From the NCBI GenBank assembly GCA_044870765.1, contig JBIOZG010000043.1, positions 32,001 to 96,000 on the forward strand: a DNA stretch of 64,000 nucleotides, in the 5' to 3' direction. The translations under genes were made by a program, and so were the position numbers. Source of the stretch: Nitrososphaeraceae archaeon. Its GTDB lineage: Archaea; Thermoproteota; Nitrososphaeria; Nitrososphaerales; Nitrososphaeraceae. Every line of letters starts with the position of its first letter. The stretch's first letter is position 1. This document shows, one piece after another, positions 32,472 to 60,523 of this stretch. The notes under the pieces were generated by a model. It had not been told where the DNA came from. It worked only from the letters and a program-made list of their open reading frames with translations, and did no database searches.

Positions 32472-32479
32472 AAAAGAGG

Positions 32480-32720: not shown

Positions 32721-32817
32721 GGGCCCGTAGCTCAGCCAGGTAGAGTACCGGACTTTTAGCATTTCGGAAGAAAAGGAAGAAATCCGGCTGTCTCGGGTTC
32801 GAATCCCGACGGGCCCG
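32721..32817 (+). tRNA. tRNA-Lys(TTT) with canonical 37/38 intron (32759-32781)
   Basis: GGGCCCG acceptor stem, CCGGA-CT-TTT-A[intron]A-TCCGG, TCGGG-TTCGAAT-CCCGA. Confidence 0.93.
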
Positions 32818-32832
32818 TACTTTAATGCCGCC

Positions 32833-33339
32833 CTAATGACCAACTAGTTGTTTTCTGTGGCAATACAGAACTAGGAGTCTTTCGCATTCCAGTTTATAAT
32901 ATTCAAGCATTCTATTTGATGCGATTACCTGATTTCTCAAATCTATCAATTGAGTATTTGATCTGATTCTTTTTGATTCAAGCTGATTTATTTCATCAAT
33001 AAGTTTGATCTGCCTATCTTCCAGTGGCATGCATTTCAGATCTTGGAACTTTTCATAGTATTCAATAGCTCTTTCTGCTGGAATATCCAATTCTATTGAT
33101 ACTTCTAGAGGTCGCTTATTCTTATCGTATAGAGCATACGCCCTAGACTCTTTACTCTTATTAACCAATTGGCTTTCAGAATCTTCTGTATCACCGGATT
33201 CTGACTTAATGATACTGCTCAGCGTTGAGGGTGAAAGGTGCACTTCTTTACAAATTTCTCTATATGTATGGCCGTTGTGGTACATGTGTAGAGCCAATTC
33301 TCTTTTCTCTGCCGGAGTTTCAGCAAATGGGTTTACCAT
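32833..33339 (-). CDS. Helix-turn-helix protein with coiled-coil tail
   Basis: HTYREICKEVHLSPSTLSSII HTH, second HTH-like segment (RPLEVSIELDI), heptad tail; abuts tRNA-Lys. Confidence 0.7.
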   Translation of the reverse strand: MVNPFAETPAEKRELALHMYHNGHTYREICKEVHLSPSTLSSIIKSESGDTEDSESQLVNKSKESRAYALYDKNKRPLEVSIELDIPAERAIEYYEKFQDLKCMPLEDRQIKLIDEINQLESKRIRSNTQLIDLRNQVIASNRMLEYYKLECERLLVLYCHRKQLVGH

Positions 33340-33505
33340 GACTTATTTATATCTAAACGCCGTATTATTTTTCTATTTATGTTACTGTTGCTACATAGCT
33401 ACATGTAGCTAAAGTCTGTTACTTAGTGCTATAAGTTGAGTTTGAAAATAGTTTAATTTGTAAGTCTAATTAATTTTGTTTTAAATCCAAAAATTTCCTG
33501 GAATA

Positions 33506-33835
33506 TTATGAACCTACGCATCCAGCAGCAAACTTACTGGTCAGGAATCTATCATCGTCGCAGTCAAATGTGATACTCCCGTCATTTGCAAGACATGGCA
33601 GTTTTACATTCACAACTGAAACATCGCATGGTGGATATTTTGCTTGTTCCTCTGGAGGCGGTAGTGGTAATGGTAATCCCTTTTTCACGCTTGGACTCTG
33701 TCTCAACTTGCCTTTTTCAAGACATCCGTATGGATACTTTTCAATATGGAATTCTGGATCGTCACATGTAAAATAGGGTCCCTGAGGGCCACTACATGAC
33801 GATTTGGATTGACATTGTCGATCATGCCAACTTAA
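33506..33835 (-). pseudogene. Start-less fragment of a Cys-rich repeat protein
   Basis: Frame stays open upstream of 33706 without a start; internal repeat FTCDDPEFHIEKYPYGC / FDCDDDRFLTSKFAAGC. Confidence 0.45.
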
Positions 33836-33866
33836 CTATGTAAATATTGTTTGAATTCAAAACCGA

Positions 33867-34412
33867 CTAGGAATATGACTTTATATCCAAAATTATTTTT
33901 GCCTTATCATTTAGTGGGATATTACGAAAGTCCGATACCGGCTTGCCATCCACTGAAGCTATAACATTTTCACCATCGATATTGAGGCCTTTCCAAATGG
34001 CCAAAAATTCACTCAAAGTGTAGTTTCTTACTGCGTTGGATTCTATGTGAATCGTCCCGCTATAATCATGTGTGTGCAATGGTGACATTCCTTGCATACC
34101 AAATTTATCTAAAGTATGGTCCGCAAACAACAATGGATCCGCAAATATTCCTGTCTGCGTTATTCCAATATTAGCAGGAACGATTATTGGTTTTCCATTA
34201 ATAGTGACATTTAGACTTACGTGATTATGAATCAACATGTTGTTGGGGGCAGCCGAACTTTCCACAACAGTTGAAAAGCCGAAAACGACTACAGCTATCA
34301 ACGCAATAGTTACCTGAATCAAACCCAAAATGACTTTTTTTCTTACTGTGCAGCTTGCGATTAAGTAATGATTGTCGCTGGTTCGATTATCACTCAGTAT
34401 TTTTGAATACAA
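33867..34412 (-). CDS. Membrane-anchored His-rich putative metal-binding protein
   Basis: TM helix, IHNH, VPANIGI, PLHTHDYSGTIHIES. Confidence 0.7.
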   Translation of the reverse strand: MYSKILSDNRTSDNHYLIASCTVRKKVILGLIQVTIALIAVVVFGFSTVVESSAAPNNMLIHNHVSLNVTINGKPIIVPANIGITQTGIFADPLLFADHTLDKFGMQGMSPLHTHDYSGTIHIESNAVRNYTLSEFLAIWKGLNIDGENVIASVDGKPVSDFRNIPLNDKAKIILDIKSYS

Positions 34413-34527
34413 TCTAATTTCTCATATTATAACCGCCGTTTTTAATCCTTATTGCATTTGGAAGTAGAGGCTATGAAGAATTAAATGTCAGATATCAATA
34501 ACATGGCTCGTCTTCGAGACGATTGAA

Positions 34528-35241
34528 ATGAAAATAATAACTCTTGCCGTATTGTGTCTGGTCTTAGTTTTAGGCTCAAGTCTCAGTGTTTCGAATTCAA
34601 ACTCGGTAGTATTTGCCTTTCATTTTGGAACTACCAGGATATATTCGGACGTTTATACAGGCGCAGGGAATAGCAGCGCACCGATAAATGAATTTGATCC
34701 TGAAAACAGGGAGATTTATACCGGTGAAACTGTTAAGTGGTCAAATCCAACGGCAGGGAAACCATATCCACATATTGTTACCTTCATAGGTAATCAAAGT
34801 ACTGAATTAAAATCAAAAATATCAAACATAACTATGACATTCCAGTCATCCAATTTGGAGTCTTTAATTAGCAATTTGAATAAATCAATATCCAAAGACG
34901 ATAAACAAACCGGTAATGCTAGTCAGACTTTCAATGGAGGGTCGATTATTTTTCCGTCCTTGGTAAATTCTTCGAACCTGTCTGTAACCTATCTGAATGC
35001 TAGTGGAAATCAGCTTTTTAAAGGTGCTGAATACAACTTTACGGGAAATGAAACCTATCTTAATTCAGGACTAATTTGGGCTGGCGGTGTGATACCGAAC
35101 GGGTTTCTGAAAATAAATTCGTTTATAGTCACTTTTATGAATCCCGGAACCTATCATTACCAATGCTTGATATACCCAGAGATGAAAGGCATGATAACAG
35201 TTAAACCGAATCCAGGAATGTTAGGTATTAATATAAAATAA
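34528..35241 (+). CDS. Secreted cupredoxin (plastocyanin-like) protein with altered Cu ligand
   Basis: Signal peptide, FDP...GETVKWSN...PHIVTF, PGTYHYQCLIYPEMKGMITV. Confidence 0.8.
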   Translation: MKIITLAVLCLVLVLGSSLSVSNSNSVVFAFHFGTTRIYSDVYTGAGNSSAPINEFDPENREIYTGETVKWSNPTAGKPYPHIVTFIGNQSTELKSKISNITMTFQSSNLESLISNLNKSISKDDKQTGNASQTFNGGSIIFPSLVNSSNLSVTYLNASGNQLFKGAEYNFTGNETYLNSGLIWAGGVIPNGFLKINSFIVTFMNPGTYHYQCLIYPEMKGMITVKPNPGMLGINIK

Positions 35242-35380
35242 TTTTCTTATTTTAATTCAGCGGACCAATATTAACTAAATTTTCGTCTTAGTAGTAATGC
35301 AACTATCGAAGTTCCAATAAATGGAGCAGGCCATAAAGTCCCAGTGATAACGCTATAACATTGAATACGAGGTCAAACAA

Positions 35381-35448
35381 AAAGCTAAATACAAACCAGT
35401 AGAACCCGGGTACATGCAAGGTTTGAATCCCGAGGCATTCCACCCGTA
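35381..35448 (+). repeat. att-like repeat copy 1
   Basis: AAAGCTAAATA-N6-AGTAGAACCCGGGTACATGCAAGGTTTGAATCCCGAGG...CCCGTA. Confidence 0.85.
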
Positions 35449-35673
35449 ACAGTTCATTAATATTTTATCTATAGTTACATAGTTAGAACCAACGATTAGA
35501 AAAGTATTATCCCATTTTAGGACATGCCTGTAGGCGATTTCCTATCTTGACTATGTTCAACGGACACGTGATAGCTCAACATCTCTGGAGTCTCAAAATT
35601 CTTGCACATCTTTCGCATCTGAGTTTCTTTGGCTTTACTTCTGCAGTTGACATCTTAAATCAATAATCCATTC

Positions 35674-37335
35674 CTAAACCGTCATTGTATGGTATCCTGT
35701 GGCACCATTGGGGAAAGGGGGGTTCATCTCAGTGGTTTGAATCTTTCCTGTTTTGTCGGTTGCTCGAACTACAATGGCATAATTTTCTTTATCCGGCGGT
35801 ACATATCCGGCTGTCCACAGTACCCAAGTATACTGCGAGAGAGGATCCTTTACTTTTGCTGTTTTCCAGGTAGTCCCTCCATCAGTGCTAACCTCAATCT
35901 TTGCTATTCCCCTGTCTCCTGCAAATGCTATCCCTGCAATTGGAACTCTACTCTCGTAGGAGGAAGCTGCAGTTTCATCTAGCTTTCTGAATCTTTGTCT
36001 TGCCGGCGCCTGACCGGGAATTAAAATGGATGAACCAGTTTTGTCCTCAGCGTTATTAGCCCATCCTAGCCGCTGCCAATAGCCCTCATAAACCTTATCT
36101 ACTAATTCAATTTCTGTTATCCACTTTGGATTCATCATTCCGTATAGGCCTGGTACTATTGCCCTAACGGGGAATCCATGTTTAGGCGTAAGTGGAGTAT
36201 AATTCATATCATATGCAAGTATAGTCCCTTCCATTTGGGATCTCTCTATAGGTATTCCTACATCATAACCGTCGGCGCATCTAAACACGACATATTTTAC
36301 GTTTGGCTTAATTGCAGCCTTATCAAGCAGATAGCTTAAACGTACACCCTTCCAAAGAGCGGTGCTTATTAGTTCGCCACCTACCTTGTTGCTTATGCAT
36401 TCTAATGTTACATATTCCTCTACTGAAGGCATTGCCTTGATCTGGTCATAGTTAATGCTCAATGGTTTTTCGACTAGCCCCTTTATCGTAAGATTCCAAG
36501 ACTTTGAATCGACTTGAGGAACTATTGGATTGATATCAATCCTGTAAAATAAATATGTTGGAGTAACTTCAGAAGCAAGAAGTGGTACTAGATTTGGATC
36601 TTCAAAGCCCTTAGGTCGAGGTCCGGTCTGTGGTAACAGTGGGGTAGTCGATTCTTGTTCTTGTTCCTCATTTTGTCTGGAAAGAAGTCTATCGACGCCA
36701 AGAAAAATTATCGGTAATGCTATTGCTGCGCCTGCTAATAGGCGAAGAAATGCTCTTCTACTATATTTTATGTCAATAGTGTCAATTGATTTATCTGGAC
36801 TAGCATTAGGCTCAGGCTCAGGTACCTCCATAGATTTTTCCTTTGTTCTACCATGAAAGAATGACGAAAACGTAAATCCAAAGGCAAGCTGGGATGGAAT
36901 AAGGGATAGCACTATAAGGGATATTGGCACGACCTGTATACCACTTCGTGATTGAATTAGCGTAACCAGCATTATTGCTATAATTATGAAAATTATATAT
37001 GACAAGGAAGAGGACAGTAAAGCCTCCAGCAGATATCCCCCACTTTTCAATCTAGAAAATAGCTTATCTAGTAAAATCGCTATAATTCCAAATGCTATTA
37101 TATTTGCAATAATTGAACCAATGAACGCCGAATATTTAGCAAGAGGTCCGAAATTTTCAACTGCCTGAGATTCAAATTCTCCAGGTGTTACTGAAAACAA
37201 TGCCTGAGACGCAACTTCTGGTAGAAACAATCCACCACTCGTTTCTTTTAGTATTATTGACACTGCAACAGCCACCGTTCCTGCCGCCAAGCCTGCAACA
37301 AAAGGAACAAGGAATCTGCGTGAATTTCTTGCCAC
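35674..37335 (-). CDS. Membrane-bound sulfite-oxidase-family molybdoenzyme
   Basis: FYRID, TLECISN (Mo-ligating Cys), LISTALWKGV, HGFPVRAIVPGLYG, GYWQRLGW, dimerisation domain; N-terminal TMs and internal SRRAFL. Confidence 0.88.
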   Translation of the reverse strand: MARNSRRFLVPFVAGLAAGTVAVAVSIILKETSGGLFLPEVASQALFSVTPGEFESQAVENFGPLAKYSAFIGSIIANIIAFGIIAILLDKLFSRLKSGGYLLEALLSSSLSYIIFIIIAIMLVTLIQSRSGIQVVPISLIVLSLIPSQLAFGFTFSSFFHGRTKEKSMEVPEPEPNASPDKSIDTIDIKYSRRAFLRLLAGAAIALPIIFLGVDRLLSRQNEEQEQESTTPLLPQTGPRPKGFEDPNLVPLLASEVTPTYLFYRIDINPIVPQVDSKSWNLTIKGLVEKPLSINYDQIKAMPSVEEYVTLECISNKVGGELISTALWKGVRLSYLLDKAAIKPNVKYVVFRCADGYDVGIPIERSQMEGTILAYDMNYTPLTPKHGFPVRAIVPGLYGMMNPKWITEIELVDKVYEGYWQRLGWANNAEDKTGSSILIPGQAPARQRFRKLDETAASSYESRVPIAGIAFAGDRGIAKIEVSTDGGTTWKTAKVKDPLSQYTWVLWTAGYVPPDKENYAIVVRATDKTGKIQTTEMNPPFPNGATGYHTMTV

Positions 37336-37474
37336 GTATTTTGATCGAATTTTAACGATTTAAGGTTTCTTTCGATTCAGTGTACTCTGAACTATTGCCT
37401 GATTAGTAGGAAGCTCCGCAGTTACAAGTGCCTATTTGGTTTATTGCTCTAGCTATCTAATCTACACTTCACAA

Positions 37475-37849
37475 TTATGATGAATCATTTTGAGCCTTCG
37501 ATATAGTAGTCGACATATTCGGTTCCATACTCTTCATCATGCCCATCATGTCTTTTTCGTGCATCTTAATTCCTAGATCCGTCATATTTAGCTGCATAAT
37601 TGCGCCCTTGACGTCTCCTTCATTTAGGTCCATGATCGCCTCCATTAAATGCATTTTAGCATTATCCAGTGACGATCCAAAAGTCATATTGCCACCTGGC
37701 ATCATCATTGTCTGATTATTGACAGCAGACATGTTTTCTTTTTCGTTTACAGATAGGTCTTGACTGAAGATGACTTTTGATGTTACTGCTATCAGAACAG
37801 TAACACCTATGGCAATCACCAATACGCTAATACTCATTTGGTTTGACAT
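37475..37849 (-). CDS. Met-rich secreted small protein
   Basis: Signal peptide; many Met residues (TMMMPGG, DMMGMMKSM). Confidence 0.65.
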   Translation of the reverse strand: MSNQMSISVLVIAIGVTVLIAVTSKVIFSQDLSVNEKENMSAVNNQTMMMPGGNMTFGSSLDNAKMHLMEAIMDLNEGDVKGAIMQLNMTDLGIKMHEKDMMGMMKSMEPNMSTTISKAQNDSS

Positions 37850-38134
37850 TGCTAAAAGTAGTAATTATGTCCAAAACATATTATATAAAGAGTATCCAAA
37901 TGCGTAACGAGACATTGAAATGTACCAGAAATACTTTTGCCGATATTAATGCCGATATTCCCTGCGTCAGGACATTCTCTTGCTCTACCATCCAAAAATT
38001 TTTTTATTAATAGTAAACCTATCTTGAATCCTACCGGAAAAAATCAAGCTATGGAATATAATATCTAATCTTGGAATAAATCGACAAATTGTTAGTGGTA
38101 CTCTCTTAAATACTAAATAAGTCATACAATAGGA

Positions 38135-39454
38135 ATGCATTGGACACCCTCAGATTATACATCAGTGAAGGCAAGCTATTCTAAACTAATGGATGCAATA
38201 ACTATCAGACCAAGGGCAGAATCAATCTTTGCTGAGCAGGCAATAGGACGGGTTCTATGGACTGATATAATATCGCATACCGATATCCCATCGAGTAACT
38301 GTTCTCACATGGATGGATTTGTTGTAAAATATAACGATATCAGTAGGATATCTCAACATAGACCAATAAAACTAAGGGTAGTGCCTAGAAGAAAAGATGA
38401 CATGAATGAAAACCAGGTCCTGTTTACAGGACAAACTATTAGAGTCTCAACTGGCGAAGTCTTACCACGTTTGGGAGATACAGTTATCCCTGTCGAATAT
38501 ACACAGTTAGATGCTAAAAATAATTCAATTATAATTCAAAGGGTGTCGGCTAAAGGATCGTTTGTATCTCATAAGGGTAGTGAGATCGCATGTAAGGATT
38601 TGTTACTAACCAAAGGTCACATTCTTAGGGCACAGGATTTAGCATTAATCGCAATGCTTGGGATTCGAAAGCTAAAAATTTTTAAAAAACCAAAAGTTGC
38701 AATAATTCCTACAGGCAATGAACTTACTGAGGACATTGCTGACATAAAGCGTGGAAAAATATTAAATACTAATAGTAAAGTCATATCTAATTTAATTGAA
38801 AAATTAGGAGGTACTCCTTTAGATCTGGGAATTACACCTGATAACATTCACAAGATAAAAAACAAAATTAGACTTGCGTTGTCTCAAAGTGATATCATAT
38901 TAACAACGGGCGGATCTTCCGTTGGATTGCTAGATCTTGTTGCTGAATCAATAAACTATATTGGAAAGCCAGGAATTCTGGTTCACGGAATAAAACTTGA
39001 TCGTGGAAGGGTAACGGGCCTCGCTGCACTCCACAACAGACCAGTAATTATTCTTCCCGGACCCATACAAGGAGCTGTGAACGCCTTTATTGTATTTGCT
39101 CAGCCACTAATTAGATTTATGTTGGGTCTGTATCCTTTTAATAAACCATTTATTTCAGCAAAGCTTACTGAAAATTGGAACGCCCGAAGAAAATTTCAAG
39201 ACTTTACAAAAATAATATATGTGAAGTTAACGTTATCAGAATCAGGTGAATTTCATGCAAAACCCATAACCGGGGAAACTACGGACATTACAGTGCTAAC
39301 AGGGAGCAATGGCTTTATTTTGGTACCCGAACGCTCGACTATGCTAAAAAGGGGGCAAAAAGTTAAAATAAACATTTTTCCTGGTCTGTCTTTTTCATCA
39401 GGTAACCCAGTAGAGTTTCCTTACCTGGCAGAAAGATCGTTCATTCCGTTTTAG
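38135..39454 (+). CDS. moeA: Molybdopterin molybdenumtransferase
   Basis: SHMDGF, PTGNEL, TTGGSSVG, LPGP. Confidence 0.9.
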   Translation: MHWTPSDYTSVKASYSKLMDAITIRPRAESIFAEQAIGRVLWTDIISHTDIPSSNCSHMDGFVVKYNDISRISQHRPIKLRVVPRRKDDMNENQVLFTGQTIRVSTGEVLPRLGDTVIPVEYTQLDAKNNSIIIQRVSAKGSFVSHKGSEIACKDLLLTKGHILRAQDLALIAMLGIRKLKIFKKPKVAIIPTGNELTEDIADIKRGKILNTNSKVISNLIEKLGGTPLDLGITPDNIHKIKNKIRLALSQSDIILTTGGSSVGLLDLVAESINYIGKPGILVHGIKLDRGRVTGLAALHNRPVIILPGPIQGAVNAFIVFAQPLIRFMLGLYPFNKPFISAKLTENWNARRKFQDFTKIIYVKLTLSESGEFHAKPITGETTDITVLTGSNGFILVPERSTMLKRGQKVKINIFPGLSFSSGNPVEFPYLAERSFIPF

Positions 39455-39461
39455 AAATACA

Positions 39462-40232
39462 TCATTTAAACAACCTAGTAGCCAGATTAATCCCTGCGAC
39501 AGCTACTATAATTCCTATGATAAAAATTAATTTTTCGTGACTCAATTTTAATGCCCCCAACCTGGAACCTAGAAATCCCCCAAGAAGGACTACAAAGGCC
39601 AATGGTAAAATCAGTACAAAATCAACTTCCTGTGTGATTGAATGGGCAACAAGTCCGCTAACCGAATTTGTGAGTATGAATAAACTAGCTGAGGCCGCAA
39701 CTGTCTTTGGATTTGCTAGACCGGTTAATATCAAGATTGGTGATAACCAGATGCCCCCACCAATTCCAACAAGGCCCGAAACAGTCCCTAAAATAGCACC
39801 TAATGGTAATGTGATTAATGAAAGCCTAGGTAGACTTAGGTTTAATTTTCTTATTTTCTCCCGCCTTATTTTTATCTGGTTACCACTTAATAGTAGCATG
39901 GCCGAAGCTGAAAAAAGAGCAATTACGAAGATTAGTATGAGAGTTTTTTCTGGTAGTATAGTAGAACCTCCAATAAAAGCAAATGGTACTGAAATAAGTA
40001 ACGGAATAGATATACGAAGTGATAGGTGACCTGCCCTTAAATAATTGAAGAGCGCTATTGAAGCAACAACTATATTCAGAGCTAATGACACAGGAGGGAT
40101 GGTGAATAGATTTACCCCAACAAGAACTAGTATGGCAATATAGCTGCTTCCTCCTGCAAATCCAACACTAGAATAAATAAAACTTATTGCAAAGAAAACT
40201 GGAACAAGTATTATCAGTAATTGCTCATTAAT
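39462..40232 (-). CDS. TauE/SafE (TSUP) family sulfite exporter/permease; frame extends upstream of the GTG at 40091
   Basis: YSSVGFAGGSSY upstream in frame, SGLVGIGGGIWLSP, ~8 TM helices. Confidence 0.82.
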   Translation of the reverse strand: MNEQLLIILVPVFFAISFIYSSVGFAGGSSYIAILVLVGVNLFTIPPVSLALNIVVASIALFNYLRAGHLSLRISIPLLISVPFAFIGGSTILPEKTLILIFVIALFSASAMLLLSGNQIKIRREKIRKLNLSLPRLSLITLPLGAILGTVSGLVGIGGGIWLSPILILTGLANPKTVAASASLFILTNSVSGLVAHSITQEVDFVLILPLAFVVLLGGFLGSRLGALKLSHEKLIFIIGIIVAVAGINLATRLFK

Positions 40233-41187: not shown

Positions 41188-41584
41188 CAGCCCATTTCTG
41201 ACTTTCTTTAGATATTTCCTTTTTCCAAATAGGTACCCGAGTTTTCACATTATTTAGAACATATTTGCATGCCTCAAAAGCTTCATGCCTATGCTCTGAA
41301 GAGACCCCAATTATAATACTGGTCTCACCGGCTTTTATATTACCGATCCTATGAATTGCAACTAATTTTTTTATTCCCCATTTTGTTTGTGCTTCATTTT
41401 CAATTTCCCTCAATTTTTCTTGTGCCATCTCATTGTAAGTCTCATAATAGATTTCTGAAACGTTACCAAACCTTCCATGATTACGGACGTTGCCTATGAA
41501 AATTGATAATGCACCTGCAGAATTGTCCTCTAGTTCAAACATTATCTCTTGCAAATTTAGACGGTTATTGGTAATACTAATCAA
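41168..41584 (-). CDS. moaE: Molybdopterin synthase catalytic subunit
   Basis: FIGNVR, HRIG, HRHEAF, KTRVPIWKKE. Confidence 0.93.
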   Translation of the reverse strand: MISITNNRLNLQEIMFELEDNSAGALSIFIGNVRNHGRFGNVSEIYYETYNEMAQEKLREIENEAQTKWGIKKLVAIHRIGNIKAGETSIIIGVSSEHRHEAFEACKYVLNNVKTRVPIWKKEISKESQKWADGVLLE

Positions 41585-41587
41585 GAT

Positions 41588-41875
41588 TCAACCCCCGCTG
41601 ACTGGCGGCAAAAGCGCAATTTGATCCTTGGAAGAAATAATGGTATCTCCACTAGTAACCTTACAATTTACAGAAGTTACAAATTTGTTACTAAACGATT
41701 TTAGCTGCGGATACTTCTTTAATATTTCATCATTCAAGTGGTTTACTGTAATGCCAGTAGGTACAGTTATTGTTATTTCTCTTTCACCCACCAATTCTCT
41801 CAAAATTGCAAATAATTTGACTTTTATTTTGTCGTTACCTAAATTATCCGATCTCAATTTGAGCTTATCCACCAA
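41588..41875 (-). CDS. moaD: Molybdopterin synthase sulfur carrier
   Basis: VKLFAILRE, C-terminal LPPVSGG. Confidence 0.92.
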   Translation of the reverse strand: MVDKLKLRSDNLGNDKIKVKLFAILRELVGEREITITVPTGITVNHLNDEILKKYPQLKSFSNKFVTSVNCKVTSGDTIISSKDQIALLPPVSGG

Positions 41876-54119: not shown

Positions 54120-54472
54120 TTTTTATCACACATATGACTTTATATCCAGAGACGGAGATTAATGCAATTATTGCAAAGAGTATTTAAAAATAATAAATCT
54201 TTATGATAAATAAGCTCCTTTCCTCAAAGGAATTTCAAAATGGTCAACTAAAATATAAACCTGAAACCTATAATTATACTGTGTCAGCCAAAATGGCAGA
54301 ATCAACTCCTCAATCTGAGGAACTTAATAGTCAAATTCAATATATATTATTTATTTGAATTTACATGAGTAGAATCAGAATAGTACCATTCTGCAGTAAC
54401 TAGTAGAATGAATTGTAAAAAGTTGGATGATAGTTAAAATGTTACATGGGTTGGATAGTTAGATAAAATGCA

Positions 54473-55027
54473 ATGAGCACTGTGATTATGCCGAATATAG
54501 ATCTTGAGGGTAAATGGAAAATGCGGGTGATCCAGGTTCCCAACGGTTTGTTATTGCTTTTGCGAATGTCCATTAAGATTGATAGGCCTGCTTTTGGCCT
54601 TGATCCTGCCAATGGAATCATGATTAATGGGTCTAAAATTAATGTGTCATTTCAGGATTGTGGGAATATTACTGGGACTCTAGAACCAAATACAATTAGA
54701 TGATCCAACGGAATTGTTTGAACAAGGCCAATTGATGTTGCGACTAATCTAGTGGACCTTTGGGATTTTGGTGAACCTGGGCATGCAAATATTTCTGTGT
54801 CAGGAACATCCTCTACAATTGATATGTCCAATTTTGGCGTTGGAGATGGCCATGGCACAATAGAAAATGATTCTTTCAGAGTAAACTTTGCGGACGGATC
54901 GAATTTTGTTGGTACCATAGAAAGTCAACACAAAATAAAATGGTCCAACGGAACTGTTTGGACGAAGTTCATCCCGAAGGTTGAAGAGGATGAACACTAT
55001 TTTATAGGACACAACTATGATTTATGA
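54473..55027 (+). pseudogene. Two-repeat beta-domain gene interrupted by two in-frame TGA codons
   Basis: ORFs 54473-54703 and 54752-55027 share a frame; TGA at 54701 and 54719 align with the Trp residues of repeat 2 (IKWSNGTVWTK). Confidence 0.75.
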
Positions 55028-55062
55028 TGACTGATGTTTATGAGATCTTATATTATTAATTC

Positions 55063-55509
55063 GTGGTAATGATATCGAGATTAATGGCATCCTATGAAAT
55101 TGCTTTGGTCCTTGCGATTGGCGCGGTAATAGGTGCAACTATCTTTAGAACGTTAATTCCTATTACTACCAAGATAATGGCCGAAATACAACTATCAACA
55201 AAGGAAAACAGGGCCCCAGTCATTCCTAAAATGCACTGGATCTGGTGGCTTGGAGCGGGAATAAATATAATTTTTGTTGGATTTCCAGTGTTCGCAACGA
55301 TTGACCAACTTGTACAACCTATCTTAAATGTAACAAGTCCCTTAGTCGCCTTCTTTATTGTCTGGGGACTTGCGCAAAGCGCTCAAGAAGCTATATTTAG
55401 AATGATGGATTCCGGAGTAGATGGTAAAGACACCAAACCCGTTCCCGTTGTGATGAAGTCAACGTCTGTATCAACTCCAACGATTGCAGTAGAGTCAAAA
55501 AAACCATAA
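55063..55509 (+). CDS. Small three-TM membrane protein
   Basis: Three hydrophobic segments and a polar tail. Confidence 0.65.
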   Translation: MVMISRLMASYEIALVLAIGAVIGATIFRTLIPITTKIMAEIQLSTKENRAPVIPKMHWIWWLGAGINIIFVGFPVFATIDQLVQPILNVTSPLVAFFIVWGLAQSAQEAIFRMMDSGVDGKDTKPVPVVMKSTSVSTPTIAVESKKP

Positions 55510-56095
55510 ATAAAAAATTCCCTATATCTTTTTTTTCAGTTCAAGTGTAAGAGGAAATTATATTACTTTTATGCCATTTTTGCTTGGTTGTACACACGCT
55601 TGTTGACTCGATCATTACGACAACTACTGGGAACATTCCCTAATTTATTTAAAAAGTTTTTCCAAGTGAGAGAATGTCGTCAAATACCAAGGGTTATTCA
55701 GAATAAAAAACTCTTACTCCACCAAAACCAATATTAATTTCTCCATCTATATATTGTAATACAAGCTCTCTTTATAAAGAAACTAGATTTTTCTACCTTT
55801 CTCAAATTTTTCTAGCATTAAATTGTATCAAATGTAAATTCAGCTTCACCTCTAGTTCTAGGAAATTCACCTGCTTCTTGAGTGTGATATTTCTGAATTT
55901 TCCAAAGAAAACTGGTCGAGGAATTCATGTAACGTCGCATCAAGTTCTAATCAATAAGTTGTCCCCAAATGATCTCTGTAAATAGAATCTGAAATTTCCC
56001 ATATAAATTAAAACAGCTGGTATCAGTCCGTAGCCAATAACGAAACCCCCTACCTACTAATAATACTTATTTGGGCCATATCAAATTAATCCCCG

Positions 56096-56893
56096 TTGAC
56101 CGAGCTATTACAGGAAATACGTAGTGAATATCAGGATTATGCACTATTTCCAGTGGAATATAAAAAAAAGGTAGATTCAATATCAAATCTGTTTGGATTA
56201 ACAAATAAAAATAGACTTAAAACAGACTATTGTCCCCTATTCGTAATTGGAAAATATCAAACTGCTCCAATTATCTTCTTTGGAGTAAATCCTGGCTATT
56301 CTTCAAAGAATAGTCCTATAGAAGAAAACGAAGCAAGTAAATCATGGGAACACTACCAAAGCCTCTATCTCAATTTTTTTCAATACTTTTCCCGTCATAA
56401 ATTTGAATCACCCTTCTATACTGCTTTATGGTATCTGATTTCCGGACTGACTGGAACCAACTATCCCATAAAAAGGAAATGGGCATTATTTGATAAGTAT
56501 CTCTGCAATTTGGAACTAATACCCTACCATTCAGAGCGGATTACATTTCCAACCATACTCAAAGAGAAACAACTAGAATATCTGAAGAATCGTTTTACTA
56601 TTAACATTGAATTCATTAAAGATTTCAATCCTAAATTGCTAATTTTTAATGGCAAGATTTGGAAGACTCTCTTGATCAACTATGATCTAACTGAACATTC
56701 TGTTAGGTCTCCAATCACGAATCAATTCACCATGTATTCTTTTGAGCTAGATGGCATTCCATCAGTGCTTTTTGATCGGTTTTTCCAAAGACACTTCCGG
56801 GGAATCACGAATGATGATAGGATGTTTACTATTCCAAAACTTATTCATGATAGATTTAATAACCTAAGGGAAAATCTCTGCCGTCTAAACTAA
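56096..56893 (+). CDS. Uracil-DNA-glycosylase-fold-like protein
   Basis: IIFFGVNPG motif-A-like, NLELIPYHS, NPKLLIFNGK. Confidence 0.55.
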   Translation: MTELLQEIRSEYQDYALFPVEYKKKVDSISNLFGLTNKNRLKTDYCPLFVIGKYQTAPIIFFGVNPGYSSKNSPIEENEASKSWEHYQSLYLNFFQYFSRHKFESPFYTALWYLISGLTGTNYPIKRKWALFDKYLCNLELIPYHSERITFPTILKEKQLEYLKNRFTINIEFIKDFNPKLLIFNGKIWKTLLINYDLTEHSVRSPITNQFTMYSFELDGIPSVLFDRFFQRHFRGITNDDRMFTIPKLIHDRFNNLRENLCRLN

Positions 56894-57377
56894 TACCTCA
56901 TAAATAGTCATTAACTCGAATCTAAATCATCATAGTTTTTGCTTGCGTTCATACTGAAATCTCAATCATATCCATCAATAATTCCGGACTCATCTCTTAC
57001 GGCCCAGACCATCGAACTTAAGGAGTGAAAATCCTTAAAACTTAAAACTTAATTAATCAATATCGTATTGGGATAACGTTCTTCATAAAAATACTAGATA
57101 TTCTTAATCCGACTAATATGAAAAATCAAATTCGCCTCGACGCACTAACTCAATCCACTGGACTAGGTAACAAATCCGATCCAAGAAAATTAACTGATTC
57201 GCAAGAAGATGAAAAGACTTAAAGAACAAATAGAAAAAGAAAAAGATCCCGAAGTTAAAGCAGAAGTAAAAAAAAGGAAATATTGTTACTGTAATAGAAG
57301 ATTCTATGGATTATTAGGAAATTTACATGTTGAGAGGATCAAAAATTGTGCTCAAAATATTATAGAGGTTGGGATTA

Positions 57378-57836
57378 CTATTGTTCGAGACGATTAAACA
57401 TACCTGTGATAAGGTTTCCACCGTGGCTAATTAGGCTCATAAACTCCTTACCAAGAGGTTCTAGGCTTTTGTCTGACATCATCTTTGCGTAAACTTCTTT
57501 ACTGTGATTTTGATCTCTAAAGTATTGTAGCTCCATCCAAATATCTTCATCTTCGGCAGCAAGGGTTTTAGTAATATTTTCCATAATATACATTCCAGAT
57601 GCATTTGCAGATTCTATTGTTTCTTGGGTATCTTTTCCAGCAAGATGATAGTATTCAAGTCTTACTCCATTACTTACAAACCATGGAATAAACTTCTTAA
57701 GGTTCTGTGAGATAGCGTTGTGGTTCTTTTTTGGAACTCTGTAAAAGTAAGCTGCAAGGTAACCTCCAGCATCGAGTTCTTTTGAAGAATTTGTATCTGA
57801 CATGATTATTACTATTGATACGTTACATATAAACAC
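57378..57836 (-). CDS. DUF1428-like protein
   Basis: YRVPKKNHNA...ELQYFRDQNHSKEVYAKMMSD ferredoxin-like pattern. Confidence 0.55.
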   Translation of the reverse strand: MFICNVSIVIIMSDTNSSKELDAGGYLAAYFYRVPKKNHNAISQNLKKFIPWFVSNGVRLEYYHLAGKDTQETIESANASGMYIMENITKTLAAEDEDIWMELQYFRDQNHSKEVYAKMMSDKSLEPLGKEFMSLISHGGNLITGMFNRLEQ

Positions 57837-57851
57837 AAATTTTAAGCAATA

Positions 57852-58007
57852 TTAATCTTCATGCCTAGGCATTGGGTAGACTTCGCCATTTTTTCCGTAT
57901 TCTTGCCAGCATGTATCATGAAAGAGATATAACATATCAAGGTGCCCAATGTCCATGTTAATATCGCAGTACTTGCAAATTCTAGAGCCCTGGAAATAAT
58001 TTTCCAT
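57852..58007 (-). CDS. Small zinc-finger protein, 51 aa (not in ORF track)
   Basis: Manual translation MENYFQGSRICKYCDINMDIGHLDMLYLFHDTCWQEYGKNGEVYPMPRHED; CxxC...HxxC. Confidence 0.5.
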   Translation of the reverse strand: MENYFQGSRICKYCDINMDIGHLDMLYLFHDTCWQEYGKNGEVYPMPRHED

Positions 58008-58136
58008 TATTAAATTTCGTCATCTACTGTAACCTTACAAACTGAGTCTAAATGCGTCTAGTAAATCATCATAACTAGTTTGATCTCTGTCAAGGGAATT
58101 TCGACTATCGATGATTTATCTATCAATATCTTGATA

Positions 58137-58640
58137 CTACTTCCAGTGCCATTGTTTAAGAGCATAATTTCCATTCTCATCATATCCTCCCTTAAATATT
58201 ACTACTACATTATTCAAAAAGGATAGTTTCCCTGTGGAATTTGTGCTGTATACTGAAGCGCCCTGATAGTCTGTACCATTTCCCACTTCTATGAATGTAT
58301 AGTTTGCCGATTCACTGCCGTCCTTGGTCGATATTACTCCTTTACCTTGATCAAATGTCACATTGTTACCTTTGGAGACGCTGATATATTCCCCTTTTTT
58401 ATTGTATTCTATGTTACCATTCAGTATGCCACTAGAAGTAAAGGTGTATTCAGTCCTGTTAGGTCCCAGTTCTCTCTTAATGGTATCCCCACCCTTTTCT
58501 ACAAAAATAGGATCTCCTAATGTTTCTCTCTGAGCAGATCCAATATTGAATAGGTAAGTATAAGATCCTGTTCCTCCAATAAGTAATAATATGAGCGCAA
58601 TTCCTGCTGTAACACTGATAGTGAATCCCTTTTTATTCAT
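58137..58640 (-). CDS. Secreted beta-rich hypothetical protein
   Basis: N-terminal TM/signal; STNSTGKLSFLNN...WHWK. Confidence 0.7.
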   Translation of the reverse strand: MNKKGFTISVTAGIALILLLIGGTGSYTYLFNIGSAQRETLGDPIFVEKGGDTIKRELGPNRTEYTFTSSGILNGNIEYNKKGEYISVSKGNNVTFDQGKGVISTKDGSESANYTFIEVGNGTDYQGASVYSTNSTGKLSFLNNVVVIFKGGYDENGNYALKQWHWK

Positions 58641-58967
58641 TTATGATATTGAATAGGTTAAGAACTATTTAAGATGAGCTGGAAAGTCTCTAAAATAACG
58701 ATGGGATCATCACATATGTCTATAACGGCGTCTTCAACACTGCTTTCTGCAATGGTTATACTGGTCACGCCAACCCAATACAAGCAGACACTAGCCTAAC
58801 CTCGCTTAGTAGTGCCACCCTTCTCTCAATGCATGCTTTGTAAGCGCACGTGATTGTAATAAATCTATGTAGTGTATGGGTGGCGATAGGAAACGCGTTA
58901 AATCCCCCTTTTTTGAGCAGATAAATTTGCAACAAACCAAGGCTAACCATAAATACTTTAGAGTAAT

Positions 58968-60176
58968 ATGGATTACATGGGTAGAAAATCTCTAGAGATC
59001 ATATCTTCTCTAATTTTAGTAACGGGAATCATATCGTTAAATTTTGATTCAGTTCAAGCAGAAAGTGAGGATGAGAAAGCGAAGCAAGATATCACAAAAT
59101 CCATCGGAAGTGCTGTAGAAGGCAGCTGGTCATCGATTGAGATGATAAATATATCAAAGCTCTTTGCCAATGACCCAATTACAGTTTATAATAAGACTTT
59201 AGGGATTGAAGGTTCTCAGGAATGCCAGGAAAATGAAAATTTGGAGAATGGAGTATGTGTACCTGACGCATCGCGACCTAAAGAAATTTGCGATGACGGA
59301 AGCGATAACGATAGGGATGGTAATATTGATGAAAATTGTAAAGAATTACCTTCGGCTCGAGATCACACGAGTGTAATACTGGCTGGTGATCTTAAACGTG
59401 ATTCAGGTGATTCAATTGCAAACGCAATTAATAAGATAGTACCAAATCTATTTGTGGGGTTAGGAGATTTAGGTTATGATAAAACTTTAGATTGGTTTAG
59501 GGAATCCTTCACAAAAGATACGCCTGACGGTCTGGGAAATCGTGCCACATGTATAATAGGTAATCATGATGAGAAAGAGAAATTCCCTAATGAGGATCCA
59601 CCAATAATTGAACAAGCAATTGAAACTTGTGGAACCGGTTGGTATGCCAAAATTGCAAATGGGACTACATTGATCCTTGGATTTAATACAATCGATGATG
59701 CTCTTGCTATTCCAGAAGGCAGTCAGATAAAAATGGCAGGCAGTGTTTTATCTAATTCCACATTCACGGAAGGTGTTAAAAATATCTTTATCTTAACTCA
59801 TAAACCATGTTTTACTCATCCGAATAGTGATCATGACGTAAACGAAAGTCCAGCAACAAAGAGGTTCTGTGGAGAACTTCGCAATAACCTTTCTGCCGAA
59901 GTATCAGAAGGTGTTAAAATATTATACATATCAGGACACAACCATGAAATAGCAAGCAGCAAAGATGAGACGAAGTTTGTTTCAGGTGGAGGCGGACAAG
60001 ATTCACATCAAGAGTGTGGTACTGACAATGACTGGAATTTCTGCAGTATGAAATTTGGATTTCTGGAATTCAGAATTGATAACAAAGATGGGTCATATGA
60101 CTGGGACTTCCTGGACGAAAATGGTGAAGTCATACATGGTAGCGCAATATCGGGGAATGATAACAACAATGGTTGA
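58968..60176 (+). CDS. Secreted calcineurin-like metallophosphoesterase with a Cys/Asp motif
   Basis: AGD, LGDLGY, GNHD, THKP, SGHNH, VSGGGG; EICDDGSDNDRDGNIDENC. Confidence 0.85.
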   Translation: MDYMGRKSLEIISSLILVTGIISLNFDSVQAESEDEKAKQDITKSIGSAVEGSWSSIEMINISKLFANDPITVYNKTLGIEGSQECQENENLENGVCVPDASRPKEICDDGSDNDRDGNIDENCKELPSARDHTSVILAGDLKRDSGDSIANAINKIVPNLFVGLGDLGYDKTLDWFRESFTKDTPDGLGNRATCIIGNHDEKEKFPNEDPPIIEQAIETCGTGWYAKIANGTTLILGFNTIDDALAIPEGSQIKMAGSVLSNSTFTEGVKNIFILTHKPCFTHPNSDHDVNESPATKRFCGELRNNLSAEVSEGVKILYISGHNHEIASSKDETKFVSGGGGQDSHQECGTDNDWNFCSMKFGFLEFRIDNKDGSYDWDFLDENGEVIHGSAISGNDNNNG

Positions 60177-60447
60177 TCATTCGTAATTACAAATGGGTAA
60201 CTATTCACCCATCAAATTGGCGAATTTAATCAAAGCATTTTGTCGATGGTCCTTTATACTTTATACTAAACGTGAAGGAACAAATGGTCTCCCGTAGAAA
60301 AAGTTCACAAGGTGATAAGACGGTAACGTTAGATTTAACAAAAATTTATATTTCTTAGTAAAATCATTTTTTTTTCAGAATTTCTATTTTCTAATCTGTG
60401 ATTAAATTGACACTAATTCGAATTGCTCATTTGACGAGGAAAAACTT

Positions 60448-60523
60448 AAAGCTAAGTTGTTTCTAATATGTAGTAGAATCCAGTAACAGGACTAATTTTG
60501 TTGCTCATATCGACGGGCCCGTA
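60448..60523 (+). repeat. att-like repeat copy 5 with intact tRNA-Lys 3' end
   Basis: AAAGCTAAG...ATGTAGTAGAATCCAGTAACAGG, then exact CGACGGGCCCGTA. Confidence 0.75.

What the first reader, a model, noticed from the sequence alone, without database searches (positions are those of the whole stretch)
32797..60523. tRNA-Lys-anchored cassette array: five co-oriented att-like sites divide the island into cargo modules with no intact integrase
Seen: intergenic copies at ~35381, 43934, 47067, 50342 and 60448 share the consensus AAAGCTAAATA-N6/7-AGTAGAACCCTAGTACATGCAGGGTTCTAATCCCGACGG. The right half matches the tRNA-Lys 3' end (GGGTTCGAATCCCGACGGGCCCGTA, ending at 32819); the left half is conserved but not tRNA-derived. 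All point the same way as the tRNA. They delimit blocks of ~2.6, 8.5, 3.1, 3.2 and 10 kb, one of which is a coherent Moco module. Established: tyrosine integrases that target tRNA 3' ends leave the displaced tRNA fragment at the far junction, and repeated use gives tandem arrays. Inference: one integrase family has repeatedly loaded units sharing the same end sequence. The blocks are small and lack integrase, replication and transfer genes, so they may be non-autonomous cassettes moved in trans, an integron-like gene-capture platform in an archaeon. The alternative is decayed conventional elements.
Basis: partly seen in the sequence, partly recalled or inferred. Interest (0 to 1): 0.88.

Follow-up and report, generated by a model that had tools for sequence, protein, structure and literature searches.

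The report
Integrase scar array behind tRNA-Lys
Downstream of a lysine tRNA gene in a soil ammonia-oxidising archaeon lies a chain of gene blocks separated by repeated 58-base attachment scars of a tRNA-targeting integrase family, a known kind of island that here is unusually dense and almost free of integrase genes.

Summary
Four copies of a ~58-nt motif (35376-35440, 43930-43992, 47060-47124, 50339-50401) and one degenerate copy (60448-60523, ending in the exact last 13 nt of the tRNA) lie co-oriented and intergenic downstream of an intron-bearing tRNA-Lys(UUU). No integrase or remnant is in the window.

The motif is not confined there. G000 has about 15 copies on 7 contigs, and 21 of 24 sampled genomes of this Nitrososphaeraceae genus carry up to 40. 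Copies sit in co-oriented clusters (59 of 60 adjacent pairs).

Relatives show what it is. An integrase gene starts 67 nt after a tRNA, and the element ends in the same conserved left half followed by 15-17 nt identical to that tRNA's T arm (3 of 5 cases examined). So the motif is the element-side arm plus core of an attR-type junction.

Synteny with relatives stops exactly at the tRNA's 3' end. No motif copy is bridged by conserved synteny (0 of 33), and blocks reassort between genomes.

Best reading: tandem accretion of integrative elements, a known kind. The integron-like reading (integrase-less cassettes moved in trans) stays open at about 0.3. Supporting it, many blocks are 1-3 kb with one or two genes, and only 2 of 59 hold an integrase fragment.

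The parts
32720..32818 (+). tRNA-Lys(UUU) gene with an intron. It is the anchor (attL side) of the array. Synteny with every relative examined ends at its 3' end.
   Evidence: ARAGORN; Rfam RF00005 58.1 bits. blastn alignments to G010:C22, G016:C1, L057, L058 and L061 end at window 32817-32825.
32819..35375 (.). Block 1 (2.6 kb). It holds an HTH DNA-binding protein (32833-33339, -), a 181-aa ORF (-), and a 237-aa ORF with a weak cupredoxin match (+).
   Evidence: ORFs; Pfam; PHROG DNA-binding protein. Not homologous to the tRNA-Lys downstream region of G010 or G016.
35376..35440 (+). Motif copy s1: element arm (AAAAAGCTAAATA box plus TAGAACCC..) followed by a T-arm-like core, GGTTTGAATCCCGAGG.
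   Evidence: Sequence; nhmmer E 5.8e-16; covariance model 62.3 bits.
35441..35644 (.). A 204-nt spacer between s1 and the Moco block. It is unrelated to the equivalent spacer in G016, and metagenome contigs show it in other contexts.
   Evidence: Global alignment. Loose ends behind 35653 in runs X1, X5 and X11, and an X1 contig joining 47213 to 35441 (weak, since contigs of repeats).
35645..43929 (.). Block 2, the molybdenum module:
- sulfite-oxidase-like Mo enzyme (35674-37335, -)
- MoeA (38135-39454, +)
- TauE (39462-40091, -)
- MoaC-MoaB fusion (40228-41187, -)
- MoaE (41168-41584, -)
- MoaD/ThiS (41588-41875, -)
- MoaA (41865-42875, -)
- MOSC (42904-43593, -)
- DUF1059 (43659-43877, +)
   Evidence: Pfam. 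The left edge of homology is sharp at window 35645-35649 in at least 8 genomes. The right edge runs into the s2 core in G010:C5, G010:C6, G008:C110 and G044:C30.
43930..43992 (+). Motif copy s2, the best copy in the window. Core: GGGTTCTAATCCTGACGG.
   Evidence: Sequence; nhmmer E 1.4e-17; covariance model 68.1 bits. Metagenome contigs diverge behind 43988 in X5 (2) and X11 (3).
43993..47059 (.). Block 3: DUF763 protein (44144-45316, -), a zinc-ribbon ORF (45593-45868, +), and a 310-aa ORF (46057-46989, +). It is a mosaic with an inner break at about 45367-45382.
   Evidence: Pfam. G012:C28:14750-16518 matches window 45382-47118 and ends in the s3 core. Five genomes match only 44003-45367.
47060..47124 (+). 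Motif copy s3.
   Evidence: Sequence; nhmmer E 2.2e-15; covariance model 62.2 bits.
47125..47225 (+). Companion unit after s3. It holds a second A/T box (GAAACTTTAAAGCTT), a short core-like ATGCATCTAATC, and a core-right remnant CCGACGTCCGAAGAC. It recurs after other copies.
   Evidence: Sequence. blastn finds window 47060-47216 similar to G010:C22 84267-84424 and to C43:100744-100895. The same unit flanks a 300-nt block on both sides in G014:C243.
47226..50338 (.). Block 4: a CHRD-domain gene (47345-47899, +), a multi-copy ~720-bp unit (47920-48640, with a 176-aa ORF at 48025-48555), and small pieces at 49747-50259 shared at 94-97% with distant species (99% in unpublished G020).
   Evidence: Pfam (identities and copy numbers).
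50339..50401 (+). Motif copy s4.
   Evidence: Sequence; nhmmer E 2.4e-14; covariance model 59.3 bits.
50402..60447 (.). Block 5 (10 kb): two PsbP-like/beta-propeller proteins (50467-52572 and 52569-54119, -), then unknown ORFs. It contains a nested 1-kb block.
   Evidence: Pfam; ORFs.
55904..55952 (+). Degenerate motif copy (diverged arm plus CAAGTTCTAATC) at the left edge of the nested 1-kb block.
   Evidence: Sequence comparison with G016. In G016 the same block abuts a canonical motif copy at the same core position.
55953..56994 (+). Nested integrase-less 1-kb block with a 265-aa ORF (56096-56893) of unknown function. It is 97% identical in G016:C1 and G012:C64 but sits in different surroundings there.
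   Evidence: blastn. Boundary sequences: left ..GTTCTAATC|, right ..GGACTCATC| followed in G016 by CCGACGG. No Pfam or PHROG match.
60448..60523 (+). Degenerate copy s5: arm-like AAAGCTAA..ATGTAGTAGAATCC.., then the displaced tRNA 3' end CGACGGGCCCGTA (60511-60523).
   Evidence: Sequence. The exact 13-mer occurs twice in the window, with 0 expected. Not detected by nhmmer or the covariance model.

Best explanation
The repeats are attR-type junction scars of one family of integrative elements native to this genus of Nitrososphaeraceae (soil ammonia-oxidising archaea).

What the element looks like. It encodes a roughly 440-aa tyrosine integrase with a SAM-like N domain, a catalytic domain and a C-terminal zinc ribbon. 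It integrates into the T-arm region of a tRNA gene. After integration the integrase gene lies directly behind the restored tRNA (attL). The far end of the element (attR) is a conserved ~40-nt arm, AAAAAGCTAAATA-N7-AGTAGAACCCTAGTACATGCA, followed by a 15-17-nt copy of the target tRNA's T arm.

Where strands probably exchange (inferred). Exchange most likely occurs in or beside the 7-nt T-loop (TTCNAAT), with the T-stem halves acting as core binding sites.

How the window's island formed. Repeated integration at tRNA-Lys(UUU), and into the cores of scars already present, stacked blocks head to tail. The integrase genes have since been lost, or many units never carried one. Blocks have been reshuffled between arrays and species at the scars.

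What the blocks are now. They are ordinary chromosomal cargo, including a complete Mo-enzyme plus molybdenum-cofactor module that is old and shared across the genus.

Shown versus inferred. Shown here: the site anatomy, its link to the integrase and to tRNAs, the co-orientation, and the synteny breaks. Inferred: the crossover position, activity today, and how integrase-less blocks move.
For: Complete elements in relatives:
- G010:C35 has tRNA-Lys(CUU) at 3031-3119, then 67 nt, then the integrase at 3186-4520, then a motif at 4885-4938. The motif's right half, GTCCGAATCCCACCG, is identical to that tRNA's T arm.
- G016:C89 shows the same layout with a 17-nt repeat and a truncated integrase.
- G048:C40 shows it at tRNA-Ala(CGC): a 15-nt repeat GGTTCAAATCCCACC lies 15 kb away behind the same conserved arm.

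The protein is an integrase:
- PHROG_1 integrase, E 9.7e-12.
- PF00589 at 20.9 bits, below the cut-off.
- R181, K209, R300, H301, W322 and Y332 are conserved in 9-10 of 10 family members.

Family members sit directly behind tRNAs: Lys(CUU) in two genomes (one of them the unpublished G020), Pro, Val and Ala.

Integrase fragments follow motif copies in G010:C9 (motif at 200526, fragment at 199876-200211) and in G013:C172.

Arrays lie behind the same tRNA-Lys(UUU) in G010:C22 (4 copies) and G016:C1 (5 copies), with entirely different content. Synteny ends at the tRNA 3' end in 7 of 7 relatives compared.

Orientation: 59 of 60 adjacent copy pairs on one contig share orientation. I counted this by hand for G000, G010, G012 and G016.

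Synteny breaks at the sites:
- 0 of 33 motif copies from other genomes are spanned by one alignment to G000.
- In the large G010/G016 loci, 0 of 9 motif sites with homology on both sides are spanned, against 22 of 66 motif-free intergenic gaps.
- Homology of the Moco block and of block 3b ends inside the cores of s2 and s3.

The 1-kb block sits inside a motif core in G016.

The middle base of the T-loop is the least conserved core column in 71 copies, as expected of an overlap region.

Literature: thaumarchaeal integrated elements mostly target tRNA 3' parts with short att sites (median 17 bp), and tandem arrays of tyrosine-recombinase elements are known (PMC6563490, section 6 read; PMC8371274, passages read).
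Against: - G000 has no close integrase of this family. Its only member is a 33%-identical paralogue on C29 that is not beside a tRNA or a motif. Nothing shows activity in this genome.
- For 2 of 5 integrase-bearing elements examined (tRNA-Pro in G016:C21, tRNA-Val in G055:C2) I found no attR or arm within 18-20 kb. The G016:C21 integrase also lacks both catalytic arginines.
- Most copies carry Lys(UUU)-type cores yet lie on contigs without that tRNA. Examples are G000:C54, G000:C4 and G010:C9 at 20-66 kb, where no tRNA occurs in 80 kb. One such copy sits 130 nt behind tRNA-Arg(CCU), whose T arm it does not match. Simple one-site accretion does not explain this.
- The left edges of shared blocks lie 15-260 nt past the core, not at it.
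- No integrase remnant is detectable in the window, and only 2 of 59 inter-motif intervals in four genomes hold a fragment (hand count). For decayed autonomous elements that is a lot of clean loss.
- All genomes are fragmented metagenome assemblies, so array continuity is uncertain.
Confidence: 0.7

Rival explanations
1. Integron-like or cis-mobilisable cassette system. Most blocks are non-autonomous units (one or a few genes plus one 58-nt site). A family integrase supplied in trans inserts and excises them at any existing site or tRNA T-loop, so the arrays work as gene-capture platforms.
For: - Many blocks are too small to be autonomous. By hand count, 25 of 59 intervals are under 3 kb (median about 3.9 kb).
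- G010:C6 has five sites in 6 kb with 1-2 ORFs per block.
- Intact integrases are rare, and only 2 of 59 intervals hold a fragment.
- Integrase-less blocks are shared at 94-97% between species whose housekeeping-like Moco genes are 67-92% identical (99% in unpublished G020). Examples are the 1-kb block and window 49747-50259 in G042.
- The 1-kb block is inserted in a site core.
- A 300-nt block in G014 is flanked by the same scar unit on both sides.
- Blocks keep their orientation relative to the sites across genomes in 11 of 12 cases.
Against: - No integrase gene holds a fixed position beside an array, as intI does beside attI.
- Integrases occur as the first gene of ordinary tRNA-integrated elements.
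- Blocks hold genes on either strand and up to 10 genes.
- Left block boundaries are not at the core.
- Homologous recombination between repeated sites could reshuffle blocks without any integrase.
- No circular junction was shown. The one back-joint in metagenome contigs is ambiguous.
Confidence: 0.2
2. The unit is a stand-alone functional element, unrelated to recombination, that happens to lie between convergent genes. It could be a promoter driving a small tRNA-like RNA or short peptide, or (read on the other strand) a hairpin-plus-T-tract terminator. It would have spread like a MITE.
For: - The left box resembles the A/T boxes 28-38 nt upstream of this genome's tRNA genes.
- It sits about 26 nt before a conserved ATG.
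- The reverse strand ends in TATTTAGCTTTTT.
- Most window copies lie between convergent genes.
Against: - The reading frame from the conserved ATG never exceeds 55 codons in 53 copies. That count includes two copies from the unpublished G020.
- The 9-bp hairpin shows no real covariation: 74.4% of cells paired against 73.8% in shuffles.
- No Rfam family matches.
- There are no terminal inverted repeats or target duplications.
- The core changes to match the adjacent tRNA in integrase-bearing elements.
- RNA contigs of one soil metatranscriptome cover island genes but no motif copy. This is only a weak point, since contigs cannot show short RNAs.
Confidence: 0.06
3. The repeats are chance similarity, or plain pseudo-tRNA fragments with no common origin.
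For: The right half alone (GGTTCNAATCC) is common to all tRNA genes.
Against: The non-tRNA left half is conserved over 40 nt in 71 aligned copies from many genomes. E-values go down to 1e-19. There were 0 matches in shuffles.
Confidence: 0.01

Closest known systems
Cryptic integrated elements of Thaumarchaeota that target tRNA genes through tyrosine recombinases (Krupovic et al. 2019, PMC6563490; section 6 and passages read)
   Same: Same phylum. Integration is into the 3' part of tRNA genes, intron-bearing ones included. The att identity is short (15-17 nt here, median 17 bp there). Cargo is metabolic genes. Tandem reuse of a site is mentioned as known for such recombinases.
   Different: In what I read, that survey describes single elements of 20 genomes and no family-wide conserved arm sequence. 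Here one 58-nt signature marks 15-40 scars per genome, mostly around integrase-less blocks of 1-10 kb.
Tandem accretion of ICEs and cis-mobilisable elements (CIMEs) in Streptococcus thermophilus (ICESt1 family)
   Same: Arrays of units are bounded by att sites of one integrase. Inner units lack recombination genes and can in principle be moved by an integrase supplied from a neighbour.
   Different: Those are bacterial, with conjugation modules and few units per array. This comparison rests on my recall. I only saw the term in search listings and did not read the primary paper.
ssrA-targeted genomic islands in tandem in Dehalococcoides (McMurdie et al. 2011, PMC3146451; abstract seen)
   Same: Metabolic cargo islands are stacked at a single small-RNA gene. 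Direct repeats of its 3' end mark the boundaries, and a dedicated integrase family is involved.
   Different: That system is bacterial, targets tmRNA and has larger islands. That many of its islands retain their integrase is my recall and was not checked.
Integrons (IntI, attI, attC cassettes), including those reported in archaeal metagenome genomes
   Same: Co-oriented arrays of short gene blocks each end in a conserved imperfect-palindrome site. Blocks are reshuffled and exchanged between species.
   Different: There is no platform integrase or attI beside the array and no common promoter reading into the cassettes. Genes lie on either strand. The site is tRNA-derived rather than a folded attC. 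The integrase is not an IntI-type protein; that it lacks the IntI-specific insertion was not tested. The archaeal integron report is recalled and was not read here.
SSV-type 'suicidal' integrases and gene capture in Sulfolobales (She et al. 2001-2004, cited in PMC8371274)
   Same: Archaeal elements become trapped at tRNA genes and turn into chromosomal cargo.
   Different: The SSV-type attP lies inside the int gene, which splits on integration. Here the frame from the conserved ATG is at most 55 codons in 53 copies, and the integrase gene is whole beside attL. PF16795 finds nothing in G000.

Membership tests
Tyrosine-recombinase integrative element integrated in a tRNA gene | Direct repeat of part of the tRNA gene at the far end of the element (attL/attR pair) | tested here: met
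   15-17-nt exact repeats of the T arm occur in G010:C35, G016:C89 and G048:C40. In the window, the 13-nt tRNA 3' end is repeated at 60511-60523 and 18-nt T-arm-like cores lie in s1-s4. No repeat was found for 2 of 5 elements.
Tyrosine-recombinase integrative element integrated in a tRNA gene | An integrase gene of the tyrosine recombinase superfamily inside the element | tested here: not met
   Not met for the window: no Pfam, PHROG or family-HMM match between 32819 and 64000. Met in relatives: G010:C35 444 aa, PHROG_1 E 9.7e-12, catalytic R-K-R-H-W-Y present.
Tyrosine-recombinase integrative element integrated in a tRNA gene | Presence/absence polymorphism with breakpoints at the att sites | tested here: met
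   Synteny ends at the tRNA 3' end in 7 of 7 relatives. 0 of 33 sites are spanned by synteny. Homology ends inside the cores of s2 and s3. An empty tRNA-Lys site was not found. In the motif-free G001, a region colinear with G000:C36 starts about 10 kb after the tRNA.
Tyrosine-recombinase integrative element integrated in a tRNA gene | Excision to a circle and integration catalysed by the integrase | not testable with these tools
   Only ambiguous joints appear in metagenome contigs: 43983->47173 in X5 and X11 with 26-34-nt sides, and 47213->35441 in X1.
Integron | IntI-type integrase with an adjacent attI and promoter at the head of the array | tested here: not met
   The first gene after the tRNA is an HTH protein on the opposite strand. 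No integrase is in the window. In relatives the integrase belongs to individual elements behind various tRNAs.
Integron | Cassettes of usually one promoterless ORF co-oriented with an attC at its 3' end | tested here: not met
   Blocks hold 1-10 genes on either strand. The site does lie at the right end of the conserved unit.
Integron | attC recombines as a folded single strand (structure conserved, sequence free) | tested here: not met
   Here the sequence is conserved and pairing is not selected: 74.4% paired against 73.8% in shuffles.
SSV-type (partitioning) integrase element | attP inside the int gene; int(N) and int(C) halves at the two junctions | tested here: not met
   The ORF from the conserved ATG is at most 55 aa in 53 copies. 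PF16795 has 0 matches in G000. int is whole next to attL in G010:C35.
MITE / insertion sequence derivative | Terminal inverted repeats and target-site duplication; random orientation | tested here: not met
   There are no TIR or TSD around copies. Orientation is uniform within clusters, 59 of 60 adjacent pairs.

The most novel reading that the evidence does not exclude
In this genus of soil ammonia oxidisers, tRNA genes serve as heads of integron-like capture arrays. Small integrase-less gene cassettes, each ending in a 58-nt site (conserved arm plus T-arm core), would be inserted, excised and reshuffled at any existing site by a T-loop-specific tyrosine integrase supplied in trans from a rare autonomous element. 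The arm's BRE/TATA-like box would fire across the core, switching on whatever lies behind it. In the free circle that would be the integrase itself. This would be a cassette system that arose independently of bacterial integrons, in an archaeon.
Probability: 0.25. Interest if true: 0.8.

Novelty: new variant of a known kind. Interest (0 to 1): 0.5.

Why it matters
Soil Nitrososphaeraceae are major nitrifiers that are hard to grow, and how they gain and exchange accessory metabolism is poorly known.

A single 58-nt signature that marks every junction gives a simple computational handle. With it one can map the flexible genome of a whole genus, including a complete Mo-enzyme and cofactor module.

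It also names a candidate integrase and its target site, the tRNA T-loop, which could be tested in vitro and perhaps used as an integration tool for archaea that lack genetics.

If the small integrase-less blocks prove to be moved in trans, this would be an archaeal counterpart of integron or CIME cassette systems. If not, it is a well-resolved but ordinary integration hotspot.

Tried and rejected
Split (SSV-type) integrase start or leaderless gene. I translated from the conserved ATG in 53 copies, two of them from the unpublished G020. The longest frame was 55 aa. Rejected.

Known RNA family. Rfam at gathering thresholds on the window and on 240 kb of other loci found only tRNAs and a fluoride riboswitch. 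A permissive scan around s2 gave only chance-level hits.

Structured RNA. The hairpin shows no meaningful covariation.

Integrase remnants in the window. tblastn with the G010:C35 integrase and a 10-sequence family HMM against six-frame G000 found only C29.

An att repeat of tRNA-Cys near the C29 integrase. None found.

attR of the tRNA-Pro and tRNA-Val elements. None found within 18-20 kb.

Composition. Island GC is 0.369 against 0.370 for the flank, so there is no foreign signature.

Metagenome reads. Only Logan contigs were available.
- Joints 43983->47173 (X5, X11; sides 34 and 26 nt) and 47213->35441 (X1) may be other motif copies or other strains. I do not count them as evidence of excision.
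- RNA contigs of X16 lay only within genes. The absence of cover at the motif proves nothing.
- The small word shares of RNA runs X16-X20 are no evidence of habitat or expression.

Sub-block boundaries at 45367, 47346, 47919, 48640, 49067 and 49747 show no recognisable scar.

PDB sequence search with the integrase gave no hit at E<=1.

Phage collection. The best matches were archaeal virus integrases at 22-27% identity.

Literature searches found no description of this motif or of such arrays in Nitrososphaeraceae. Supplementary tables of PMC6563490 were closed and may list att sites that bear on this.

I did not run structure prediction, complex prediction, the search for homologous proteins or the search of protein representatives.

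Genomes G020 and G045 are flagged unpublished.
- They are included in the genome tallies.
- G020 supplied loci L023, L039 and L092, used and left out.
- The 99% identity quoted for window 49848-50139 is from G020.
- No conclusion depends on either genome.

Full report
**Observation**

The window is G000:C43:32001-96000, from a 2.0-Mb, 59-contig genome. Record titles of its relatives name Nitrososphaeraceae metagenome genomes.

An intron-bearing tRNA-Lys(UUU) lies at 32720-32818. Four copies of a ~58-nt unit follow on the same strand, all intergenic, at 35376-35440, 43930-43992, 47060-47124 and 50339-50401. They are far beyond chance. nhmmer gives E 1e-14 to 1e-17, and a 21-nt core pattern found 3 matches against 0 in 100 shuffles.

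The fifth site (60448-60523) is degenerate and missed by the profiles. It shares ATGTAGTAGAA with copy 2 and ends in CGACGGGCCCGTA. That 13-mer occurs only there and at the tRNA 3' end.

No ORF of the island matches an integrase. Cargo includes a Mo-enzyme plus a complete molybdenum-cofactor module: MoeA, MoaC/B, MoaE, MoaD, MoaA, MOSC and TauE.

**The motif is a genus-wide repeat in co-oriented clusters**

A profile built from the four copies finds 15 copies in G000 at E<=0.001, on C43, C52, C10, C54, C49, C4 and C24. No tRNA lies in 104 kb around the non-C43 copies.

A sequence-only covariance model finds the motif in 21 of 24 other sampled genomes of the genus, with up to 40 copies each. 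It finds the motif in 0 of 16 genomes from other families of the order.

I counted orientation by hand for G000, G010, G012 and G016. Of 60 adjacent pairs on one contig, 59 share orientation. The single switch separates two clusters 80 kb apart on G010:C9. Intervals between copies have a median of about 3.9 kb, and 25 of 59 are under 3 kb.

**What the motif is**

Weak PF00589 matches led to G010:C35. There, tRNA-Lys(CUU) is followed after 67 nt by a 444-aa ORF on the same strand. About 365 nt past its stop lies a motif copy whose left half is the conserved arm. Its right half, GTCCGAATCCCACCG, is identical to that tRNA's own T arm, unusual TCC included.

Two more cases show the same anatomy:
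- G016:C89 has a 17-nt repeat and an integrase reduced to its N-terminal third.
- G048:C40 is at tRNA-Ala(CGC), with a 15-nt repeat GGTTCAAATCCCACC lying 15 kb downstream behind the same arm.

For two further integrase-bearing loci (tRNA-Pro in G016:C21, tRNA-Val in G055:C2) I found no far junction within 18-20 kb.

The protein is a tyrosine integrase. It matches PHROG_1 at E 9.7e-12 and PF00589 below the cut-off. It has a SAM-like N domain, R181-K209-R300-H301-W322-Y332, and a CPxC...CxxC zinc ribbon, conserved in 9-10 of 10 members. Its nearest matches in the phage collection are archaeal virus integrases at 22-27% identity.

Members or fragments occur in 30 of 39 other genus genomes. Several sit directly behind tRNAs: Lys-CUU, Pro, Val and Ala. 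Some fragments lie just downstream of motif copies (G010:C9, G013:C172).

So the motif is the element-side arm plus core of an attR-type junction. Short att identity and tRNA 3'-part targeting agree with what is described for thaumarchaeal integrated elements (PMC6563490, section 6).

**The window's island**

In all seven relatives compared, homology upstream of the tRNA runs to its last bases (window 32817-32825) and then stops. G010:C22 and G016:C1 also have motif arrays behind this tRNA, with 4 and 5 copies, but different content.

The Moco block is shared widely at 82-92% identity. Its left edge is sharp at 35645-35649, about 210 nt past s1. Its right edge runs into the s2 core in four contigs. 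In G016 it is at least the fifth block rather than the second.

A 1-kb integrase-less block (55953-56994) is 97% identical in G016 and G012 but has different neighbours. In G016 it interrupts a canonical motif at ..GTTCTAATC|..|CCGACGG, which places the junction at the T-loop. In 71 aligned copies the middle T-loop base is the least conserved core position, as expected for an overlap region.

**Sites are synteny breaks**

Of 33 motif copies from other genomes with 700-nt flanks, none is spanned by a single alignment to G000. Left and right flanks often map to different G000 contigs.

In the large G010/G016 loci, 0 of 9 motif sites with homology on both sides are spanned, against 22 of 66 motif-free intergenic gaps. 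This contrast is modest, because these regions are mosaic everywhere.

Flank homologues lie mostly on G000's own motif contigs and keep their orientation in 11 of 12 cases. Degenerate core remnants sit at those places.

**Against the simple picture**

- G000 has no close integrase, and the window holds no remnant.
- Lys(UUU)-type cores occur far from that tRNA. tRNA-Lys(UUU) is the only G000 tRNA with AATCCCGA.
- One such core sits behind tRNA-Arg(CCU).
- Only 2 of 59 intervals hold an integrase fragment.
- Blocks as small as 1 kb with one ORF are common.
- The island does not end at 60523. Another copy lies at C43:100746. In the motif-free G001, a region colinear with G000:C36 starts about 10 kb after tRNA-Lys.

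**Rejected readings**

- A split integrase or leaderless gene: frames are at most 55 aa.
- A structured RNA: no covariation and no Rfam family.
- A MITE: no TIR or TSD, and uniform orientation.

The promoter-like look of the arm is real but untested. The integrase of G010:C35 also has A/T boxes of its own in the 67-nt spacer.

**Verdict**

This is a tandem-accretion island of a tRNA T-arm-targeting integrase family, which is a known kind. It is an unusually dense and integrase-poor variant, marked by one conserved 58-nt signature across a genus. Whether the small blocks are decayed elements or cassettes moved in trans is open. I put the latter at about 0.2-0.3.

**Unpublished genomes**

G020 and G045 enter only the genome tallies, a few loci, and the 99% identity quoted for window 49848-50139. 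No conclusion rests on them.

Noticed in passing
window 47920-48640 (ORF 48025-48555, 176 aa): A ~720-bp unit is present in many copies per genome across the genus, including G000:C20 at 93% and C54 at 80%. It has far higher contig depth than its neighbours in two soil DNA runs and in one soil metatranscriptome (50 against 0-3). It has no Pfam or PHROG family.
   Followed up: partly
window 32478-32585 (-): A second, divergently oriented tRNA-like gene lies 135 nt upstream of tRNA-Lys. ARAGORN in intron mode calls it tRNA-Arg(CCG) with an intron. Rfam scores it 28.6 bits, just under the cut-off. G001 has a counterpart at the same place.
   Followed up: partly
L119 (G016:C89), reverse-strand positions 3572, 4157, 5486: A second kind of scar. 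Three copies of the last 12 nt of tRNA-Lys(CUU) (CCACCGAACCCG) are each followed by AATAWTATTGATAC and preceded by related sequence. This suggests another element family that crosses over in the acceptor 3' end. Window site s5 may belong to that kind.
   Followed up: no
window 56096-56893 (+): The 265-aa protein of the recently exchanged 1-kb block has no family match. It is present in 9 of 39 other genus genomes, at 80-97% identity in eight of them and 65% in G001.
   Followed up: partly
L085 / L114 (G016:C21:16744-17958, -): This full-length integrase sits next to tRNA-Pro(GGG), but both catalytic arginines are replaced (C and S). It is probably inactive yet keeps an open frame of 413 aa.
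   Followed up: no
L080 (G000:C29:1699-3135, -): The only family integrase in G000 is 478 aa and 33% identical. It lies 4.8 kb from tRNA-Cys with no att repeat, in the same gene order as G012:C42, where it carries a stop codon. It may be a resident or domesticated recombinase.
   Followed up: partly
L008 1770-1844 (G000:C4, -): A fluoride riboswitch (Rfam 43.2 bits) lies 5.6 kb from the motif copy on contig C4.
   Followed up: no
G010:C9, 20-66 kb (+ copies) and 147-200.6 kb (- copies): Two motif clusters face each other on one 200-kb contig. The minus cluster starts at tRNA-Arg(CCU) at the contig end. The plus cluster has no tRNA within 80 kb and may continue the tRNA-Lys(UUU) array of contig C22.
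   Followed up: partly
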